Shown here: in pieces, positions 1-23,692 of the stretch
Position numbering within the stretch: position 1 is the first letter of the stretch
How the letters are laid out: the number at the start of each line of letters is the position of its first letter
Origin: a virus
Taxonomy: Duplodnaviria; Heunggongvirae; Uroviricota; Caudoviricetes
Reading direction: 5' to 3' (one strand)
IMG/VR virus record: IMGVR_UViG_3300028797_000098
Span: 1-38,320 of that record
DNA length: 38,320 nucleotides
Notes under the pieces: model-generated
What the model was told of the DNA's origin: nothing
Databases searched by the model: none
The model's input: the letters and a program-made list of their open reading frames with translations, nothing else
Program-made: the position numbers and the translations under genes

Positions 1-1150
1 CAAGGCATAGCGGTCGCAAGACCACGGCTTCCCCGGTTCGCGGGGTACCTTCATTATCTAGTATTCTAAGACCTTCATCAAGTATGTTCTTGGCGGCATT
101 CCAGTCCCTATCTATTACGCTACCACATTCTAGACATATCCACTCGCGTTCGCTAAGTTTCAATGTATGGTATCTATGCCCACAGTTGTTGCATAGTTGC
201 GAACTGGGGAAGAACCGTCCTACCTTAACGACAGTACGGTTATGCCATTGAGCCTTGTACTCTATCATCTTAGTTAGTGTACCGAGTGCCTGATTGGCCA
301 ACGCACCAGCAAGACAGCGGTTCTTCAGCATTCCCTTTATGTTAAGGTTCTCCATGCAGATTATGTCATAATCTCGGACTAACCTGTGTGATACTTGATG
401 AAGGAAGTTATTCCTTCTGTTACCCAGTTTTTCATGGGCTGCAGCAAGTTGAATACGGACTTTCTCGTATCGACTGCCGCCTTTCTTCGCCTTTGCGAGT
501 TTCCTCTGCAAATGCCTAATCTTTCGTTCCGACTTCTTATCGAAATGTGGATTCTTAATCACTTCTCCGTTGGACATCACGATGGACGACTTGATACCGA
601 GGTCGATACCCACACATTCGCCAGTATGTTCCATTTCCGGCACATCAACATCACAACAAATAGAACAATAATAGTCGCCCTTTCTGCTCTTCTTTACGGT
701 GACATGATAGATTTTAACAATATTTTCGTGTTCAAATGTCTTGCCGAAACGGCACTTAATTGCACCAACTTTCGGCAGTACAATGGAATTGCCGACTATT
801 AGTTTCTTAATATCCTTGTGACACATAGCATTCCGGTAACTCTGTTTGTCCTTCTTGGACTTGTATCTTGGATACTTGGATTTGCCTGCAAAGAAGTTCT
901 GATAGGCTTGGTTCATATCCATATAGGCATTAGCCAGTCCTTGCGAGTCGGCTTCTTTCAACCATTCCCATTCTTCCTTAAAAGACTTCAATTTCGGCTG
1001 AAAGGACATCTTGGTCTCTTCGTAGATATATGACTTAATTCTAAGGCACTGGTTATACACGAAACGACAGCAACCGAAGGTCTTCGCGAAAAATACCTTC
1101 TGCGCTTTGTTCGGATATAGCTTGATTTCGATGCCTTTCTTAACTATCAT
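1..1150 (-). CDS. tnpB: TnpB RNA-guided endonuclease (IS200/IS605 family, solo/IS1341-like); 3' end runs off the window
   Basis: Manual translation of the minus strand from ATG at 1150 gives MIVKKGIEIKLYPNKAQKVFFAKTFGCCRFVYN (OrfB HTH). It also contains VGIDLGIK (RuvC-I), IICMENLNI (RuvC-II), SSQLCNNCG...EWICLECG (Zn finger) and DRDWNAAKNIL (RuvC-III). The frame is open to the window edge, so it is absent from the ORF track. Confidence 0.96.
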   Translation of the reverse strand, partial: MIVKKGIEIKLYPNKAQKVFFAKTFGCCRFVYNQCLRIKSYIYEETKMSFQPKLKSFKEEWEWLKEADSQGLANAYMDMNQAYQNFFAGKSKYPRYKSKKDKQSYRNAMCHKDIKKLIVGNSIVLPKVGAIKCRFGKTFEHENIVKIYHVTVKKSRKGDYYCSICCDVDVPEMEHTGECVGIDLGIKSSIVMSNGEVIKNPHFDKKSERKIRHLQRKLAKAKKGGSRYEKVRIQLAAAHEKLGNRRNNFLHQVSHRLVRDYDIICMENLNIKGMLKNRCLAGALANQALGTLTKMIEYKAQWHNRTVVKVGRFFPSSQLCNNCGHRYHTLKLSEREWICLECGSVIDRDWNAAKNILDEGLRILDNEGTPRTGEAVVLRPLCL

Positions 1151-1153
1151 ACG

Positions 1154-1246
1154 AAAAAACCTACCGGAACTGGTCCTTCCGGTAGGATACAATGTACCTA
1201 AGTACATTTTAAACTCTTCTGCGATGGCAAGGACCAGTTGCCTTCG
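1154..1246 (-). ncRNA. Putative structured leader RNA of tnpB: three hairpins, outer two with complementary loops
   Basis: Minus strand: CGAAGGCAA-ctggtcc-TTGCCATCG, AATGTAC-ttag-GTACATT, CCTACCGGAA-ggaccag-TTCCGGTAGG, then T6. Loops CTGGTCC and GGACCAG are exact reverse complements. Confidence 0.6.
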
Positions 1247-1252
1247 TATATC

Positions 1253-1289
1253 AGTTTATATATGTAGCAAAAATTCCGAAAATAGTCAA
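1253..1289 (-). promoter_or_regulatory. Sigma70-like promoter (TTGACT-17-TACATA) directly followed by a TATAAACT motif, upstream of tnpB
   Basis: Minus strand reads TTGACT attttcggaatttttgc TACATA TATAAACT. Confidence 0.6.
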
Positions 1290-12526: not shown

Positions 12527-15250
12527 ATGAGTAATGTAAGCGAATCTGCTGAACCTATTGCCGCACCGAAACTTGCCAAAGTGAACAAGCGTGACGGAAG
12601 ACCACAGACTTTTAATCCAAGCAAGATTGAACACGCGATGAAGACCGCGTTCTATGCTACCAAGACTTCTGTTAGTGACGAAGAACTTGATGAGGCGACC
12701 AACCGGGTTATTGAAGAAATCCAAAGTTACAACACCGCGTCGGTCTCTGCCGACAAGGTGGCCAATGCGGTGAAGAATGTTCTCCGCGAAAAGTGGCCCA
12801 AGGCATACGATGCCTATGTGATTTACCGTGCCAACCGTGACAAGGTTCTTGCGACCAAGAAGGCGATTATCAAGAACATGCCTCTTCTGAACACGGTGCG
12901 TGAAATTACAGATGACAAGTACACGTCATTGAACACGTCGAATATCCTCCGTGACAACGCCAATGAATGTGGCGCAACGCCGGCTGGCGCGTATGGCAAG
13001 ATTGCGTCTGAGACGAACAAGATGTACAACCTGTTGAATAACATCAACGAGAAGTATTCCCAGATGCATAAGGATGGCTACATGCACATCCATGACCTCA
13101 ACATGTACAACTTGACCTTCAACTGCCTCTTCGCTCCTATTGGCAAGCTGCTGTCCACTGGTTTCGATTCCGGCACGGGCTTCATTCGCCGTGCTCATTC
13201 TGTCCAGAGTGCTGCTGCGCTTACCGCAGTGATTTTCCAGCTTCAATCCAATCAGCAGTATGGCGGCATTGCATGTGATAACTTTGACTTTGACCTTGCC
13301 CCGTCAGTGGATGAAAGTTTCCGTACCCATCTCGGCGTTAGGCTAAACGATTATTACGAAGACACTGGTGATGAAAAGTTCAAGGGCTTTGCTGGTGATC
13401 CGGAAAAAGACGAAGATAAGGAACGCTGGCGCAAGCTTCTTTCCGATGTCACCATGAACAAGCCGATTTGCCATTACACCGACCGTTTCCCCAAGAAATG
13501 TCTTGAAAAGGCTATCAAGTACACTAACATTGAAACCCATCAGGCTATGGAAGCTCTTGTCCACAACCTGAACTCCTTGCAGAGCCGGTCCGGAAACCAG
13601 GTCCCATTCTCATCAATCAACTTTGGCCTCGATACGTCCAACTGCGGGCGAATGGTCAGCCACAACTTGATGCGTGCCCAGTACGAAGGCATGGGTGACG
13701 GCCTTACCCCGATTTTCCCGATCTTGATTTTCAAGCTCATGAAGGGCTATACCAAGTACGAGGGCGACCCGAACTACGACCTGTACAACCAGGCAATCGA
13801 ATGTCTCGCCCGCCGCTTCTACCCGAACTTTGTACGTGTTGACTCCTCCTTCAACCTCCCGTATGTCAAGTACGAATACAAGGAAGTCGAGGATGCAAAC
13901 CCGACGTTCAAGTACCGGGGTAGGAACGAAGATTTTGAATTCGGCTTCGGCGATTACAAGGCCGGCGAAACCACTGCGTTTGAATACGATGTGGGCAATG
14001 GCGACTACTGGGAAGTCGTGTCCAAGACGGGCGACAAGCTCAAAGTTCGCAAGATTATCCCGAACACCACCATTTCCACGATGGGCTGCCGTACCAGGGT
14101 CATCGGCAACATCAACGGACCCGAACAGACTACCGCCCGCGGTAACTTCGCGTTCCATACGCTCAACCTGCCCCGTATCGCTATCGAGGCTCACATCAAG
14201 AGCAAGAACGAGGAAACCCGTAAGCAGATCTTCTTCGAAAAGCTCGATGAGTTGCTTGAATGCGCCAAGGATAGCCTCCTCGACCGCTTCAACTTTATCT
14301 GTAATACAAAGACCTACGAGAACTTCCCGTTCACTATGCAGCAGGGTCTGTATCTGACCTCCGATGACAAGAAGCACGCGCTCACCGATTCCATTGCGGA
14401 AGTGATGAAGCAGTCTACCCTGTCCATCGGTTATATCGGCATTGCCGAAGTCATCACCCTCCTTACCGGTAAGACCTTCGGTATTGACCATGACATCGAT
14501 GACTTTGCACTCTCTATCGTGGAACATATCCGCGAGTTCTGCGATAAGACCCAGAAGGAAACGCATCTCAACTGGTCGTGCTTTGCAACTCCGGCAGAAG
14601 CCGTTGCTGGTCGTTTTGCTTCCATCGACAAGAACAAGTTCTGCAAGGAAATCATCGAGGAACCGACGGATGACGATGATATGATGACCGGTTGTGAAGG
14701 TCATTCGAACCCGAAGATGAGCGATAATGACTTTGTTACTGGATGTGAATGCACTTATCCGGATGCCCGTAAGAAGAAGGTTCGCCTGATCGGCGTTAAG
14801 GGTCTTGAAGATGTTGACCTCATGAAGATTTTCGGCAAGGGTTACTATACCAATAGCCATATGATGTATTTCTCTCTGGATACGACTCTTGAAAACAAGA
14901 TTAAGACTGAGGCGCCGTTCCACAAGATTACGAACGCTGGTCACATCTTCTACTACAAGCTTAATGGTGATTTAACTAAAAATGTGCCGGCGGTAAAGGC
15001 TGCTATAGATGCAATGTATGAAGGCGACCTTGGTTATTTTAGTTGTACTATGTCGTCGGATGATTGCATGAAGTGTGGATATCATGGCATAATTGATAAC
15101 GAATGTCCGAAGTGTGGCTGTAGGGATGAAGATATGTTTGTTCGTGTTCGCCGTATTACGGGTTATTTAACGGGATCGCCTAGAAAGACGATTTTGAAGT
15201 CCTGGAATACTGGCAAGCTTGCTGAATTGGCAGATCGCAAAAATATTTGA
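12527..15250 (+). CDS. nrdD: Anaerobic (class III) ribonucleoside-triphosphate reductase with ATP cone
   Basis: KVNKRDGRPQTFNPSKI (ATP cone), HIHDL, QSNQQYGG, QVPFSSINFG, TMGCRT, GNFAFHTLNLPR, ATPAEA, YYTNSH, CMKCG...CPKCG and the RRITGYL glycyl-radical loop. Confidence 0.98.
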   Translation: MSNVSESAEPIAAPKLAKVNKRDGRPQTFNPSKIEHAMKTAFYATKTSVSDEELDEATNRVIEEIQSYNTASVSADKVANAVKNVLREKWPKAYDAYVIYRANRDKVLATKKAIIKNMPLLNTVREITDDKYTSLNTSNILRDNANECGATPAGAYGKIASETNKMYNLLNNINEKYSQMHKDGYMHIHDLNMYNLTFNCLFAPIGKLLSTGFDSGTGFIRRAHSVQSAAALTAVIFQLQSNQQYGGIACDNFDFDLAPSVDESFRTHLGVRLNDYYEDTGDEKFKGFAGDPEKDEDKERWRKLLSDVTMNKPICHYTDRFPKKCLEKAIKYTNIETHQAMEALVHNLNSLQSRSGNQVPFSSINFGLDTSNCGRMVSHNLMRAQYEGMGDGLTPIFPILIFKLMKGYTKYEGDPNYDLYNQAIECLARRFYPNFVRVDSSFNLPYVKYEYKEVEDANPTFKYRGRNEDFEFGFGDYKAGETTAFEYDVGNGDYWEVVSKTGDKLKVRKIIPNTTISTMGCRTRVIGNINGPEQTTARGNFAFHTLNLPRIAIEAHIKSKNEETRKQIFFEKLDELLECAKDSLLDRFNFICNTKTYENFPFTMQQGLYLTSDDKKHALTDSIAEVMKQSTLSIGYIGIAEVITLLTGKTFGIDHDIDDFALSIVEHIREFCDKTQKETHLNWSCFATPAEAVAGRFASIDKNKFCKEIIEEPTDDDDMMTGCEGHSNPKMSDNDFVTGCECTYPDARKKKVRLIGVKGLEDVDLMKIFGKGYYTNSHMMYFSLDTTLENKIKTEAPFHKITNAGHIFYYKLNGDLTKNVPAVKAAIDAMYEGDLGYFSCTMSSDDCMKCGYHGIIDNECPKCGCRDEDMFVRVRRITGYLTGSPRKTILKSWNTGKLAELADRKNI

Positions 15251-15276
15251 CGGTCATGTTATAAACTCATTGCCGG

Positions 15277-15370
15277 CACATCGGATAATTGGCGTTCTTC
15301 GATGTGAGATGGGTTTTATAGGTGACCCGTGGTTGGATGAACGCCAATTTAGCCGACTGCGGGTCACTTT
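15277..15370 (+). ncRNA. Putative kissing-loop structured leader RNA before the endonuclease gene
   Basis: Stem 15277-15285/15298-15306; stems 15322-15330/15359-15367 and 15331-15335/15350-15354. Loop segments AATTGGCGTTC (15287-15297) and GAACGCCAATT (15339-15349) are exact complements. G-U pairs favour the + strand. Confidence 0.65.
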
Positions 15371-16483
15371 ATGCTTAATAAGAAATCAATTTATGGTCAT
15401 CTGTCTAATGAAGCTGACTTAGTGCAGATGAAATCTTTAAAACCGGTAAATAAATATAATCGGTTAAATTTTAGTTTTAAGTGTTCAGAATGTGGAGAGA
15501 TTTCATCACGAAACTTACGGACGATAGTATTTCCATTTAGATGTCGTAATTGCGTATCTAAACAAACACATACCACGGACGAATACTATGCAAACTATAA
15601 TAAGAGTATGGTTGAAAAGTATGGCGAAAATTACCGTGAGATATTAGATGAGCATCGGAATCAAGTTGTGAAGGAGCGTTATGGTAGTTATTCTGGCATG
15701 TTTATCGCAACAAGTGATAAACGAAATGCTACCATGAAAGCTAGATATGGGGTTACTCATCCGGCAAAAATTGATGGATATGGTAGAAAATGCGCTGAAA
15801 CTAAGTTGCAACGGTATGGTGACCCGACATATAACAATCGTACCAAAGCGAAGGAGAGTATTGTTGCCGAATTCGGATCAACTGATGTGTGGTATCAACA
15901 AAATGTAATTAAGAGTACGCGCACGAAATTGATACGATATGGTGATAAGACATATAATAATAGGGAGAAGGCTGCGAAAACATCTCTTAAACGATACGGA
16001 GTCCGCGTTCCATCACAGAGTAAGAAGATTCATGAACGAATGCATTTTAAGTACATTTATAATGATATAATCTTTGATAGTTCGTATGATTTATCATATT
16101 ATATATGGCTATCTGATAATAACATTGATTTTGAGTATAGACCGGATGTGCAATTTTCTTATACATATAATGGAAGGACTCATGTTTATAACCCGGATTT
16201 TAGAGTTGAAACGAGATTAGTTGAATTGAAGGGCCGGCAATTCTTCAAGGATAAAAATCCGGATAATGTAATGGTGAACCCATATAATCATGATGAGGAT
16301 GGATTATATGAAGCAAAACATCAGTGTATGCTGGCTCACGATGTTGACATTATAGTAGATTGTTCGGAATACGAGAAATATGTTGCCAAACATTATGGAA
16401 AGGATTATATTTCTACTTTTAGGAATAAAACAATTAAACATAAAAAGCGTAATAAGGTTTGTAATGAATTACAGCAAGATTGA
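15371..16483 (+). CDS. Free-standing homing-endonuclease-like protein: Zn finger, (K/R)YG repeats and a PD-(D/E)XK nuclease domain
   Basis: CSECG...CRNC; repeated KYG/RYG units (RYGDPTYNNR, RYGDKTYNNR); C-terminal FDSSYD...YNPDFRVETRLVELKG. AT-rich and wedged between nrdD and nrdG. Confidence 0.8.
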   Translation: MLNKKSIYGHLSNEADLVQMKSLKPVNKYNRLNFSFKCSECGEISSRNLRTIVFPFRCRNCVSKQTHTTDEYYANYNKSMVEKYGENYREILDEHRNQVVKERYGSYSGMFIATSDKRNATMKARYGVTHPAKIDGYGRKCAETKLQRYGDPTYNNRTKAKESIVAEFGSTDVWYQQNVIKSTRTKLIRYGDKTYNNREKAAKTSLKRYGVRVPSQSKKIHERMHFKYIYNDIIFDSSYDLSYYIWLSDNNIDFEYRPDVQFSYTYNGRTHVYNPDFRVETRLVELKGRQFFKDKNPDNVMVNPYNHDEDGLYEAKHQCMLAHDVDIIVDCSEYEKYVAKHYGKDYISTFRNKTIKHKKRNKVCNELQQD

Positions 16484-16994
16484 TCCGATGTCAATAGTCG
16501 ATGGGGAAGGCCTTCGGGTCTCACTCTTCGTCTCCGGTTGCCGCAACCACTGCAAGGGTTGCTTTAATCCAGAGACCTGGGACTTTTCCTATGGCAAGGA
16601 ATTCGACGCTATTGCCGAGAATGAGGTGCTCGAAGCATGCCGGCCATCCTATATTGCCGGACTGACTGTACTTGGTGGCGAACCGTTTGAGCCCGAGAAC
16701 CAGTGGGGGCTCTTGCCGTTCCTTTCCAAGTTCAAGGAAAAGTATCCTGACAAGACTCTGTGGATGTTTACCGGCTATGTGTTGGATAATGACCTGCTGA
16801 CTGGGCAGCGCCAGGATATCCATCTCGTAACGTCGAACATCCTCAAAACGGTGGATGTCTTGGTGGACGGCCCGTTCATCCTGGAACAGAGGGATATTTC
16901 ACTGAAATTCAGGGGTAGTTCGAATCAGCGGATTTGGACACGTGAGGAAATTCAGAAACTTCTCGACAGCATGCCTGCCGCACGAGGCTTGTGA
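16464..16994 (+). CDS. nrdG: Anaerobic RNR activating enzyme (radical SAM)
   Basis: MNYSKID...VDGEGLRVSLFVSGCRNHCKGCFNPETW (CxxxCxxC), LGGEPF, DVLVDGPF, FRGSSNQRI; start re-assigned to ATG 16464. Confidence 0.97.
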   Translation: MNYSKIDPMSIVDGEGLRVSLFVSGCRNHCKGCFNPETWDFSYGKEFDAIAENEVLEACRPSYIAGLTVLGGEPFEPENQWGLLPFLSKFKEKYPDKTLWMFTGYVLDNDLLTGQRQDIHLVTSNILKTVDVLVDGPFILEQRDISLKFRGSSNQRIWTREEIQKLLDSMPAARGL

Positions 16995-22652: not shown

Positions 22653-23401
22653 TTATTGAAGCTACAAACCGTTTTGTCTTTACAGAAGTTGCCCGCATGC
22701 TGAAGGAAGAGTGCGGTGGCCGGCCTGAATTTGCCGACACTGTATTCATCCTCGGTCATGTAGATTCTCGTTGTACCCTGTCAGGTATGCGCAAGAAGTA
22801 TCCTAACAAGAAACTCGTTGTATACCAGTTGGAACAGATGTATGACGGATGCAAGTATGCCAATCCGCATGTATTCGAATGGCTTCGTGGTGCAGACGAG
22901 GTATGGGACTATGACTTGGACAATATCGACTGGCTTGCCAAGAAGGGCATCCGTACTTCATTCCATCCGATGCATTACGCAAGCACTTTGCGCGACGTAC
23001 CAAGCGTGGAAAAGGATGTCGATGTCCTGTTCTATGGCTTTCTGACCGAGCGTAGGTCCAAGCTGCTTACTCAGCTTGCCAATGCCGGCTGCAACAAGTG
23101 GGCAACGACAATCACCATGGGCATTTCCGGCGAGAACCTGGCCAAATGGATCGGACGCTCCAAGATTATCCTGAACATCCACGCATACGATAACAACAAC
23201 CGTCAGGAACAGGTGCGCATGTTCTACCCGGTAATCAACGGGGCATGTGTCGTTTCCGAGCAGAGTGCCCGTAACTACCTTGACGGCTGTATTACCGAAT
23301 GTCCGTTGAAGTACCTCCCGGAAACCATAGACAACATCCTCAAGAATGACATGTGGAAGAAGCTCGGTGATAACGCTGTCTATAACTTCATGAGGCGATA
23401 A
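22649..23401 (+). CDS. GT-B-type glycosyltransferase-like protein (CgeB/GT1_2-like C-terminal domain)
   Basis: DVDVLFYG...ERRSKLL...RSKIILNIH...EQVRMFYPVINGACVVSE. Confidence 0.75.
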   Translation: MIIEATNRFVFTEVARMLKEECGGRPEFADTVFILGHVDSRCTLSGMRKKYPNKKLVVYQLEQMYDGCKYANPHVFEWLRGADEVWDYDLDNIDWLAKKGIRTSFHPMHYASTLRDVPSVEKDVDVLFYGFLTERRSKLLTQLANAGCNKWATTITMGISGENLAKWIGRSKIILNIHAYDNNNRQEQVRMFYPVINGACVVSEQSARNYLDGCITECPLKYLPETIDNILKNDMWKKLGDNAVYNFMRR

Positions 23402-23692
23402 TCAACTACCCACGGGTATAAAGACCCGTGAGTTTGGGGTAACTCAGACTCATAGTTGATTAGACTCAGTGAAGCAGAGAAATCTGCTGAACTACGTTAG
23501 GAAGGTCATAACACCTACGGATGTACGGTCAAGTCTGTAGCTCTGTTGAATGTCATTAAACAGTCCTGATGGGTAGGGACAGTGTGGCGTTCATGACAAG
23601 CCTTCCTAACATTGTCGATGACCACCCACAGGGAGTAATCCCTGCATTACCTATTAAGTTAGGTTAAAAAACAACGAAAGGATAACGACTAG
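23381..23692 (+). ncRNA. IscB omegaRNA (HEARO-type scaffold from 23401; guide from the 5' flank)
   Basis: ATCAACTA (23401-23408) pairs with TAGTTGAT (23453-23460); hairpin CACGGGT-ataaag-ACCCGTG; conserved-looking AGACTCAG, CTACGTT, ACACCTACGGATG, GTAGCTCTG and AACATTGTCGA blocks. Confidence 0.9.

What the first reader, a model, noticed from the sequence alone, without database searches (positions are those of the whole stretch)
15260..15370. 11-bp loop-loop pseudoknot RNA between nrdD and the endonuclease
Seen: a 9-bp stem with a 12-nt loop, and a 9+5-bp stem with a 14-nt loop; loops share 11 perfectly complementary bases. Four G-U pairs work only on the + strand, pointing to RNA-level selection. 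The last stem ends 3 nt before an ATG that has no Shine-Dalgarno sequence. I could not match it to hammerhead, HDV-like, twister, pistol or group I cores by eye. Inference: a translational gate, stability element, novel ribozyme or cofactor RNA for the downstream nuclease.
Basis: partly seen in the sequence, partly recalled or inferred. Interest (0 to 1): 0.78.

Follow-up and report, generated by a model that had tools for sequence, protein, structure and literature searches.

The report
Kissing-loop leader RNA before phage nuclease gene
The stretch is a real folded RNA leader carried by a selfish nuclease gene that inserted between two phage genes; its two hairpin loops pair with each other, relatives keep that pairing with different letters, and it most likely holds nuclease expression down.

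Summary
Positions 15277-15369 (+) form hairpin H1 (9 bp, 12-nt loop) and hairpin H2 (17 bp, 16-nt loop). The loops share 11 perfectly complementary bases, five G-U pairs fit only the + strand, and the ATG at 15371 has no clear Shine-Dalgarno sequence.

It is not a chance structure. Relatives keep the same two-hairpin plan with at least 16 different loop pairs, all complementary. In one seven-sequence alignment, 5 of the 7 loop-loop pairs change on both sides and every cell stays paired.

The leader belongs to a ~1.2-kb cassette: a TATAAACT box, the leader, and a PD-(D/E)xK-type homing endonuclease gene. The cassette sits in a junction where relatives have nrdD and nrdG overlapping as TAATG or TGATG. 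The same genome has two more copies with other loop sequences, each after TATAAACT and each before a TnpB gene. TATAAACT boxes before the terminase and endolysin genes have no such leader.

No Rfam family matches and I found no paper describing it. This scan has already noted the same class in at least seven other phage genomes.

Most likely it is a cis-acting brake on nuclease expression: H2 occludes the start, sometimes terminates transcription, and is locked by the loop-loop contact. This mechanism is inferred, not shown. A ribozyme or a nuclease-cofactor role is not supported.

The parts
12527..15250 (+). nrdD (anaerobic ribonucleotide reductase, 907 aa). Its stop at 15248-15250 marks the left edge of the inserted cassette.
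   Evidence: Pfam NRDD, ATP-cone and Gly_radical. Six relatives have nrdD overlapping nrdG as TAATG or TGATG with nothing between them.
15260..15267 (+). TATAAACT box, a late-promoter-like element 9 nt upstream of H1.
   Evidence: The genome holds 18 copies against about 7 expected. Copies also lie 6-30 nt before the terminase large subunit and endolysin ORFs. The box is conserved in L039, L002 and L003. Its promoter function is inferred.
15277..15306 (+). Hairpin H1: a 9-bp stem (15277-15285 with 15298-15306) and a 12-nt loop at 15286-15297. Loop bases 15287-15297 pair with the H2 loop.
   Evidence: L039 shows a compensatory C-G to U-A change in this stem. A variant at 15279 keeps pairing as U-G.
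15307..15319 (+). 13-nt linker between the hairpins. It is unpaired and poorly conserved.
   Evidence: The alignment with L039 and L002 shows the linker diverged while the stems and loops are kept.
15320..15369 (+). Hairpin H2: a 17-bp stem with four G-U pairs (15320-15336 with 15353-15369) and a 16-nt loop at 15337-15352. Loop bases 15339-15349 are complementary to the H1 loop. The stem is followed by UUUAUG.
   Evidence: Variants at 15320, 15355 and 15358 all keep or improve pairing on the + strand. The simple terminator scan does not call it a terminator.
15371..16483 (+). Free-standing homing-endonuclease-like gene (370 aa). It has an N-terminal CxxC...CxxC zinc finger, repeated xYG motifs and a C-terminal PD...E-x-K motif.
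   Evidence: Pfam DUF7487, PHROG 3339 homing endonuclease at 2.9e-5, alignment A1, and a weak profile match to T7 endonuclease I at E = 0.08.
16383..16411 (+). Sigma-70-like promoter (TTGCCA, 17 nt, TATATT) embedded in the 3' end of the nuclease gene. It probably drives nrdG.
   Evidence: The same TTGCCA...TGCTATATT motif recurs in the window and the genome.
16465..16994 (+). nrdG (activase). The likely start at 16465 overlaps the nuclease ORF by 19 nt and marks the right edge of the insertion, where a TAATG is re-created.
   Evidence: Pfam Fer4_12 and Radical_SAM, translation, and an N-terminus identical over the 70 residues shown to nrdG of L252, which directly overlaps nrdD.
1148..1260 (-). 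Second copy of the architecture, before a TnpB gene. TATAAACT is at 1260-1253. H1 spans 1246-1222 with loop CTGGTCC. A middle hairpin spans 1208-1191. H2 spans 1186-1160 with a 10-bp stem and loop GGACCAG. A U6 run follows, then the ATG at 1150-1148.
   Evidence: fold -36.7 kcal/mol, z = -3.6. H2 is called terminator-like. The ORF has TnpB domains OrfB_IS605, TNB and HTH.

Best explanation
The stretch is the 5' leader of a mobile homing-endonuclease cassette and acts in cis as a brake on nuclease expression.

**What the sequence shows.** A ~1.2-kb cassette (TATAAACT box, ~100-nt leader, nuclease ORF) was inserted exactly at the nrdD/nrdG stop-start overlap. It carries a replacement promoter for nrdG in its 3' end. 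The leader folds into two hairpins. H2 ends directly at the start codon, and the loops of H1 and H2 are complementary. That complementarity is kept by compensatory change in relatives.

**What is inferred.**
- Transcription from the TATAAACT box starts about 6 nt downstream, so H1 sits 0-4 nt from the 5' end.
- H2 buries the ribosome landing site, with its weak GGGU-type or AGGA-type Shine-Dalgarno sequence in the 3' arm.
- Where a U-run follows H2 (the TnpB copy and many relatives), H2 also terminates a share of transcripts.
- The loop-loop kissing helix ties H1 to H2 in a compact pseudoknotted fold. This stabilises the closed state and shields the loops and the 5' end, so little nuclease is made.
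For: **Structure and strand.**
- The fold is far better than shuffles on the + strand.
- Sense is more stable than antisense in 12 of 13 instances, and G-U pairs lie almost only in the sense strand.
- A 97%-identical metagenome variant has four in-stem changes, all pairing-preserving on the + strand, and none in the two 11-mers.

**Covariation of the kiss.**
- In seven leaders with conserved stems, 5 of the 7 kissing pairs change on both sides, 100% of cells are paired, 0 of 500 shuffles reach this, and slid controls pair at 29-45%.
- Seventeen leaders show at least 16 different loop pairs. Cognate complementarity is 7-11 nt; non-cognate reaches at most 5 in 270 combinations.
- An unbiased scan for one H1 stem with any 7-nt loop found the loop's complement nearby in 15 of 122 hits, against about 2 expected by my estimate (122 x 300/16384).

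**The leader is cassette-borne.**
- Six relatives have nrdD and nrdG overlapping with no spacer.
- Homologous nuclease genes in other genomic contexts carry the leader too.

**Specificity within the genome.**
- The three copies lie before the homing endonuclease, TnpB-1 and TnpB-2, each after TATAAACT.
- The boxes before the terminase and endolysin genes have short plain leaders.
- Three other boxes overlap a simple terminator hairpin in a way that would exclude that hairpin from their own transcripts.

**Precedent.** Start-site-sequestering hairpins are an established control for phage homing endonuclease genes: I-TevI, I-TevII, I-TevIII, segB and mobE (PMC2988022; PMC2677866).

**Relatives of type C.** L024, L090 and L026 place TATAAATA between H1 and H2. 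There, a late transcript would lack H1 and read-through transcripts would carry the kiss, which fits the kiss belonging to the OFF state.
Against: - There are no expression data. One RNA run gave only contigs, which are uninformative about ends.
- Both read-through and own-promoter transcripts here contain the whole leader, so no ON state is evident without an unknown factor.
- H2 of this copy has only a weak U-tract and is not called a terminator.
- In type C relatives the Shine-Dalgarno sequence lies free, 10-12 nt after H2, so start-site occlusion is not universal.
- A loop contact far from the base of H2 would not obviously strengthen occlusion of the base.
- Loops diverge as fast as unpaired linkers. 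A purely structural role does not predict this.
- Some homologous nuclease genes at the same site have a single hairpin (L041) or no leader (L244, L245).
Confidence: 0.5

Rival explanations
1. The leader is a self-addressed riboregulator of the P4 CI or P1/P7 c4 kind. Most transcripts from the box end at H2, giving a ~95-nt small RNA. Its H1 loop then pairs, also in trans, with the H2 loop of nascent transcripts of the same cassette to set termination or translation. Each copy has its own loop 'address', so copies in one phage do not cross-talk.
For: - The layout is box, leader, terminator-like H2, then gene. H2 of the TnpB-1 copy is a canonical terminator with a 10-bp stem and U6, and U-runs follow H2 in most type B leaders.
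- The loops evolve as fast as unpaired linkers while H2 stems stay conserved.
- The three copies in this genome have mutually non-complementary loops.
- Earlier notes of this scan proposed the same analogy.
Against: - There is no match to the Rfam C4 family or any other family.
- This copy's U-tract is weak and type C leaders have none after H2.
- No evidence exists for a stable short RNA.
- Intramolecular pairing is kinetically favoured over pairing in trans.
- Loop diversity could also arise by drift with compensation.
Confidence: 0.2
2. The leader is an RNA stability or processing element. The 5'-terminal H1 and the kissing fold protect the nuclease mRNA from 5'-end-dependent decay. Alternatively, the coaxially stacked H1-kiss-H2 helix is an RNase III-type processing site that separates the nuclease message from nrdD.
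For: - The spacing from the TATAAACT box to H1 is constant at 6-9 nt in all three copies. If transcription starts about 6 nt after the box, H1 lies 0-4 nt from the 5' end.
- Stacked helices of about 28-37 bp would be long enough for a double-strand-specific RNase. This is inference from helix lengths.
- From my own knowledge, 5'-terminal stem-loops are known mRNA stabilisers in bacteria.
Against: - The transcription start is only inferred from the T4 late-promoter rule.
- A single hairpin would suffice for 5' protection, so this does not explain the strictly kept loop complementarity.
- A stabiliser is an odd fit for genes that are usually kept at low expression.
- No processing data exist.
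Confidence: 0.15
3. The RNA is a cofactor, antitoxin or guide that binds the downstream nuclease, or it is a self-cleaving ribozyme.
For: It lies directly upstream of nuclease genes. Type III toxin-antitoxin loci and IscB/HEARO loci also place a structured RNA before a nuclease gene, and a HEARO RNA is present elsewhere in this window.
Against: - The same architecture precedes unrelated proteins: PD-(D/E)xK endonucleases, TnpB (whose guide RNA is 3' of the gene) and a primase-like protein.
- No sequence is conserved between subtypes apart from the pairing, so there is no candidate catalytic or binding core.
- There are no Rfam ribozyme hits.
Confidence: 0.05
4. The feature acts at the DNA level, as a cruciform or single-strand hairpins used for homing, transposition or replication, rather than as an RNA.
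For: The motif is nearly symmetric, so its reverse complement also forms two hairpins with complementary loops. TnpB elements descend from IS200/IS605 transposons, whose ends are DNA hairpins (my own knowledge).
Against: - G-U pairs occur in the sense strand only. Sense folds are 1-16 kcal/mol better than antisense in 12 of 13 cases.
- Natural variants preserve pairing through wobble pairs that would be A-C mismatches on the other strand.
- The motif always has the same orientation and distance relative to the downstream start codon.
Confidence: 0.05

Closest known systems
Regulatory hairpins of T4-family homing endonuclease genes (I-TevI, I-TevII, I-TevIII, segB, Aeh1 mobE), and hairpins before endonuclease genes in 'fractured gene' loci (PMC2988022; PMC2677866)
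   Same: Both are stable RNA hairpins directly upstream of a phage homing endonuclease ORF, next to a late-type promoter box. In both, the nuclease is inserted in or next to ribonucleotide reductase genes, and the promoter for the downstream host gene is embedded in the nuclease ORF.
   Different: The known cases are single hairpins, with the late promoter placed so that late transcripts lack the 5' arm. Here there are two hairpins whose loops pair with covariation, and in this genome the box lies upstream of both, so the cassette's own transcripts keep the whole fold. The same leader also serves TnpB and primase-like genes.
ColE1 RNA I / RNA II loop-loop kissing complex (bound by Rop)
   Same: Two hairpins have fully complementary 7-nt loops, as in the TnpB-1 copy and the type B leaders.
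   Different: ColE1 pairing is between two molecules, an antisense RNA and its target, and controls plasmid replication. Here both loops lie on one leader, about 25-60 nt apart, before a protein-coding gene. The three-dimensional geometry was not tested.
Satellite phage P4 CI RNA and P1/P7 c4 RNA (regulators processed from the leader of the transcript they control)
   Same: A leader-encoded structured RNA has exposed bases complementary to a downstream site in the same leader. A promoter-proximal terminator is present, and control is specific to one transcript.
   Different: No sequence or Rfam similarity was found. No processed small RNA is shown. The targets here are hairpin loops rather than ribosome-binding or seqA/seqC sites.
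IS200 left-end RNA structures (a terminator hairpin plus a ribosome-binding-site-sequestering stem-loop before tnpA)
   Same: Two consecutive hairpins before the gene of a selfish element of the IS200/IS605 lineage limit read-through transcription and translation.
   Different: From my own knowledge, no loop-loop complementarity is described for IS200. The order and roles of the hairpins differ, and the gene here is tnpB or a homing endonuclease, not tnpA.
Pseudoknot control of repZ/repA in IncI-alpha and IncB plasmids
   Same: A hairpin loop pairs with a distal sequence next to the start site and sets the level of translation.
   Different: That system activates translation and depends on translation of a leader peptide and on an antisense RNA. 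The short ORFs crossing the leader here are not conserved in frame.

Membership tests
T4-type homing-endonuclease regulatory hairpin | A stable hairpin sequesters the Shine-Dalgarno sequence or start of the endonuclease gene. | tested here: inconclusive
   H2 (17 bp) ends 1-3 nt before the ATG, and only a weak GGGU motif lies in its 3' arm. In type B relatives AGGA(G) is paired in the 3' arm of H2. In type C the Shine-Dalgarno sequence is free.
T4-type homing-endonuclease regulatory hairpin | A late promoter is placed so that late transcripts lack the inhibitory 5' arm. | tested here: not met
   The TATAAACT box at 15260-15267 lies upstream of both hairpins in all three copies of this genome. 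The feature is met only in type C relatives, which have TATAAATA in the linker.
Intrinsic (Rho-independent) terminator | A G+C-rich stem is followed immediately by a U-tract. | tested here: inconclusive
   H2 of this copy has a G+C-rich stem but only UUUAU, and it is not called by the scan. H2 of the TnpB-1 copy is called, with 10 bp and U6.
Kissing-loop (loop-loop) RNA complex | Two hairpin loops have Watson-Crick complementarity that is maintained in evolution. | tested here: met
   The complement here is 11 nt. In relatives, 5 of 7 kissing pairs covary with 100% pairing. Cognate loops match over 7-11 nt and non-cognate over at most 5 nt.
Kissing-loop (loop-loop) RNA complex | The loops are physically paired in the folded RNA. 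| not testable with these tools
   This needs SHAPE or DMS probing, NMR, or compensatory mutagenesis.
Any described RNA family (Rfam 15, including hammerhead, twister, pistol, HDV-like, C4 antisense, HEARO and IS605-orfB motifs) | A match to the family covariance model. | tested here: not met
   The window has no hit at gathering score except an unrelated HEARO at 23401-23629. At E <= 10, only microRNA-hairpin noise overlaps the leader; the fifth hit (Bacilli-1, E 7.7) lies in the nrdD 3' end. Seven related loci gave no hits.
Leader-peptide-coupled pseudoknot control (IncI/IncB type) | A conserved short ORF is translated through the fold. | tested here: not met
   A 37-codon ORF starts at 15309, but its frame is closed in L002. 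Upstream ATGs in L002 and in TnpB-1 are in frame with the main gene, while those in TnpB-2 are not.
PD-(D/E)xK homing endonuclease (the downstream gene) | A catalytic PD...(D/E)xK motif and a nuclease fold. | tested here: inconclusive
   P275-D276, E285 and K287 are invariant in alignment A1. The gene matches Pfam DUF7487 and PHROG 'homing endonuclease'. The profile match to T7 endonuclease I is weak, E = 0.08. No structure was predicted.

The most novel reading that the evidence does not exclude
The leader may be an RNA 'lock with its own key'. The short terminated leader RNA would act through the H1 loop on the H2 loop of nascent transcripts of the same cassette, in cis and in trans. The loop pair would be a rapidly diversifying address that keeps the several selfish-nuclease cassettes of one phage regulated independently. 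This would be an undescribed, widespread class of phage riboregulator, comparable in logic to P4 CI immunity but used by mobile nuclease genes.
Probability: 0.15. Interest if true: 0.8.

Novelty: new variant of a known kind. Interest (0 to 1): 0.62.

Why it matters
Homing endonucleases and TnpB nucleases must be expressed just enough to spread without harming the phage that carries them. The only described control is a single start-site-hiding hairpin in T4-type phages.

A two-hairpin leader whose loop-loop contact is kept by compensatory change, and which is shared by unrelated selfish nuclease genes in rumen phages, points to a common and undescribed RNA control module for mobile genes. Earlier notes of this scan place the same class in Bacteroidota, lake and soil phages.

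It offers a compact natural example of an intramolecular kissing complex that can be tested cleanly with loop swaps. It could serve as a marker for mobile cassettes in phage genomes, and possibly as a set of orthogonal RNA parts.

Tried and rejected
- **Rfam.** Searches at gathering score and at E <= 10 on the window, and at gathering score on seven related loci, gave nothing relevant.
- **Phage GenBank search.** blastn of the region found no match.
- **Literature.** Searches for kissing loops with homing endonucleases, TnpB, or leaders and terminators found no description.
- **Sequencing runs.** Four runs were laid on the region. All are contigs. The one RNA run covers only parts of nrdD up to 15276, which says nothing about transcript ends. 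Only the DNA variant contig was usable.
- **Relaxed motif scanner.** On the whole genome it gave 117 hits against 75-96 in shuffles, so it is not informative on its own. It served only to point at the TnpB-2 copy, which I then checked by folding.
- **Leader peptide.** An ORF runs from 15309 through H2, but it is not conserved in frame in L002 or in the other copies.
- **Hammerhead-like reading.** CUGAUAGG in the H2 arm of type B leaders is not conserved (L144 has CUAAUAGG), so I rejected this.
- **Alternative pairing in read-through transcripts.** I looked for pairing between H1 and upstream nrdD sequence that might distinguish read-through transcripts from own-promoter transcripts. None was seen in the fold of 15251-15375.
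- **Group I intron remnant.** nrdD ends with a normal stop, and the empty site in relatives is a simple TAATG overlap, so I rejected this.

Full report
**Setting.** The window is the first 38 kb of a 203-kb viral contig, estimated about 52% complete. DNA from bovine gut metagenomes carries it. The finding lies between nrdD (12527-15250; Pfam NRDD, ATP-cone, Gly_radical) and a 370-aa ORF (15371-16483; Pfam DUF7487, PHROG 'homing endonuclease'). nrdG follows.

**Check of the observation.** The sequence shows two hairpins.
- H1 is 15277-15285 paired with 15298-15306, giving 9 bp with one G-U and a 12-nt loop.
- H2 is 15320-15336 paired with 15353-15369, giving 17 bp with four G-U and a 16-nt loop.
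- Loop bases 15287-15297 and 15339-15349 are perfect complements over 11 nt, with a duplex energy of -15.5 kcal/mol.
- The ATG at 15371 follows the stem directly, and there is no clear Shine-Dalgarno sequence.

The + strand folds at -47.9 kcal/mol (z = -3.9, 0 of 200 shuffles as good), against -31.9 kcal/mol for the - strand. An 11-nt loop match is expected at about 3e-6, and occurred in 2 of 200,000 random loop pairs. At strict thresholds the site has only one marginal companion (about 199.5 kb) in the 203-kb genome, and shuffled genomes give 0-2 weak hits. The only correction is that H2 is one continuous stem rather than 9+5 bp.

**Evidence that it is an RNA structure under selection.** Three lines agree.
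- *Strand.* In 13 leaders, the sense strand folds better than the antisense in 12. G-U pairs are frequent in the sense strand (for example 8 of 36 pairs here) and nearly absent in the antisense.
- *Natural variation.* A 97%-identical contig from another metagenome has four substitutions inside the stems, at 15279, 15320, 15355 and 15358. All keep pairing on the + strand: C-G to U-G, A-U to G-U, U-G to U-A, and G-U to G-C. It has none inside the two 11-mers, while flanks and linker do vary. L039, whose nuclease is 98% identical, has a compensatory C-G to U-A change in H1. Its linker is diverged, yet its loops are identical.
- *Covariation of the loop-loop contact.* Homologous nuclease genes carry the same plan with different letters. 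L003 and its relatives use GTGGAACTC with GAGTTCCAC. L035 and L037 use GAGCGAG with CTCGCTC. L024 uses TTTCCAC with GTGGAAA. Others differ again.

I also ran a scan of viral contigs for one H1 stem with any 7-nt loop, which makes no assumption about the loop. It recovered six loop 7-mers (four not seen in the earlier loci), each with its exact complement in the loop of a downstream hairpin. On an alignment of seven such leaders, the kissing helix has 5 of 7 pairs changed on both sides. All cells are paired, 0 of 500 shuffles reach this, and slid controls pair at 29-45%. Over 17 leaders, cognate loops match over 7-11 nt and non-cognate loops over at most 5 nt in 270 combinations. Loops diverge about as fast as unpaired linkers (0.33-0.43 against 0.28-0.44), while H2 stems are conserved at 0.05-0.12.

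**What it belongs to.** Six relatives have nrdD and nrdG overlapping as TAATG or TGATG with nothing between them. One of these, L252, has an nrdG N-terminus identical to the window's over the 70 residues shown. The window therefore carries a ~1.2-kb insertion, from about 15251 to about 16464.
- The insertion consists of a TATAAACT box, the leader and the nuclease ORF.
- This is the layout of a free-standing homing endonuclease cassette described for T4-type phages, including promoters for the downstream gene embedded in the endonuclease ORF (PMC2988022).
- The protein has a zinc finger, repeated xYG motifs and an invariant PD...E-x-K motif. Its profile match to T7 endonuclease I is weak, E = 0.08.
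- Other nucleases have invaded the same junction with a single hairpin (L041) or without a leader (L244, L245).

**More copies in the same genome.**
- *TnpB-1 copy.* TATAAACT is at 1260-1253. H1 is at 1246-1222 with loop CTGGTCC. A middle hairpin lies at 1208-1191. H2 is at 1186-1160 with loop GGACCAG. U6 follows, then the ATG at 1150-1148 of a TnpB gene. H2 here is called terminator-like.
- *TnpB-2 copy.* A third copy lies at genome positions 66779-66894, before another TnpB gene. It has TATAAACT, an H1 with a 12-nt loop, a 20-bp H2, and the kiss TTGCCCG with CGGGCAA.
- *The box elsewhere.* TATAAACT occurs 18 times against about 7 expected. It also precedes the terminase large subunit and an endolysin at 6-30 nt without hairpins, so it looks like this phage's late-promoter box.
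- *An internal contrast.* Three further boxes overlap the 5' arm of a simple terminator hairpin, which would exclude that hairpin from their own transcripts. The kissing leaders lie wholly downstream of the box and would be retained in the cassette's own transcripts.

Elsewhere the leader also precedes TnpB genes next to a T4-type capsid gene (L137), another DUF7487 nuclease (L211) and a primase-like gene (L165).

**Mechanism.** What is shown is the fold, its strand, the covarying kiss, its position abutting the start codon, and its membership of mobile nuclease cassettes.

The following steps are inferred.
- Transcription starts about 6 nt after the box, by the T4 late-promoter rule (my own knowledge). 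This would make H1 5'-terminal.
- H2 hinders 30S binding and, where a U-run follows, terminates transcription.
- The kiss locks the fold.

Type C relatives place TATAAATA between H1 and H2, so only read-through transcripts would form the kiss. That fits the kiss belonging to the repressed state.

Several points remain open.
- No ON state is evident for this copy.
- The Shine-Dalgarno sequence is free in type C.
- Loop pairs diverge fast, which hints at specificity between copies. This keeps a P4 CI-like or c4-like self-addressed riboregulator alive as the main rival.

A ribozyme, a ligand sensor or a nuclease-specific cofactor is unlikely. Nothing but the pairing is conserved between subtypes, and the downstream proteins are unrelated.

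**Comparison with what is known.** No Rfam 15 family matches, and I found no paper on such a leader. The closest described systems are the single start-site-sequestering hairpins of T4-family endonuclease genes (PMC2988022; PMC2677866). Structurally, the closest is the ColE1 RNA I/RNA II kissing complex. This scan has already recorded the same class in at least seven other phage genomes. This copy is therefore a further member of a class that is unpublished but recurrent within the scan. I did not re-examine those other genomes.

**Verdict.** I class it as a new variant of a known kind of control, the homing-endonuclease leader hairpin, with an undescribed covarying loop-loop lock. Confidence in the 'cis-acting expression brake' reading is 0.5. 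Interest is 0.62.

Noticed in passing
window 23401-23629 (+): A HEARO RNA (Rfam RF02033, 137 bits, full-length). This is the guide-RNA scaffold of an IscB nuclease, so it marks a further selfish nuclease element in the window, with a different RNA upstream of it.
   Followed up: no
own genome 91916, 93954 (+) and 98289 (-), outside the window: TATAAACT boxes whose last four bases form the foot of a simple terminator hairpin followed by a U-run and an ATG. A transcript started at the box would lack the 5' arm. This is the classic overlapping terminator-promoter layout and contrasts with the kissing leaders.
   Followed up: partly
window 10539, 18865, 20404, 26287, 21790, 30151 and 37663: A recurrent TTGCCA-N17-TGCTATATT motif, 24+7 in the genome by a loose pattern. 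It often sits only about 8 nt before an ATG, which suggests host-type promoters giving leaderless or near-leaderless mRNAs.
   Followed up: partly
L003:2978-3002 (also L004, L005, L040 and L042): A third hairpin holds the nuclease start codon in its loop (AUGGAACUC). This loop nearly copies the H1 loop (GUGGAACUC), so the H2 loop could pair with either one. It may be a competing-partner switch in that lineage only.
   Followed up: no
own genome 61385-61560 (+), outside the window: A very stable G+C-rich structure (-77.5 kcal/mol) lies after a TTGCTATATATT promoter-like motif and before an 840-aa ORF. It contains two hairpins with a 7-nt loop complement (CCTTGCG with CGCAAGG). It may be another leader of the same kind.
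   Followed up: partly
window 12527-15250: nrdD is long at 907 aa, and its Pfam and PHROG matches come in separate stretches with a gap around residues 445-512. I did not examine whether this is an insertion.
   Followed up: no
L244, L245, L249, L250, L041 and X7 contig 16: The nrdD/nrdG TAATG junction is a hot spot. Different relatives carry a 673-aa nuclease without a leader, a small membrane-like ORF, a nuclease with a single hairpin, or an unrelated 2.3-kb replacement.
   Followed up: partly
type B leaders (L137, L201, L142, L165; alignment A3): A middle hairpin between H1 and H2 is capped by a GNRA tetraloop (GAAA or GCAA) in several copies. This may be a further tertiary contact.
   Followed up: no
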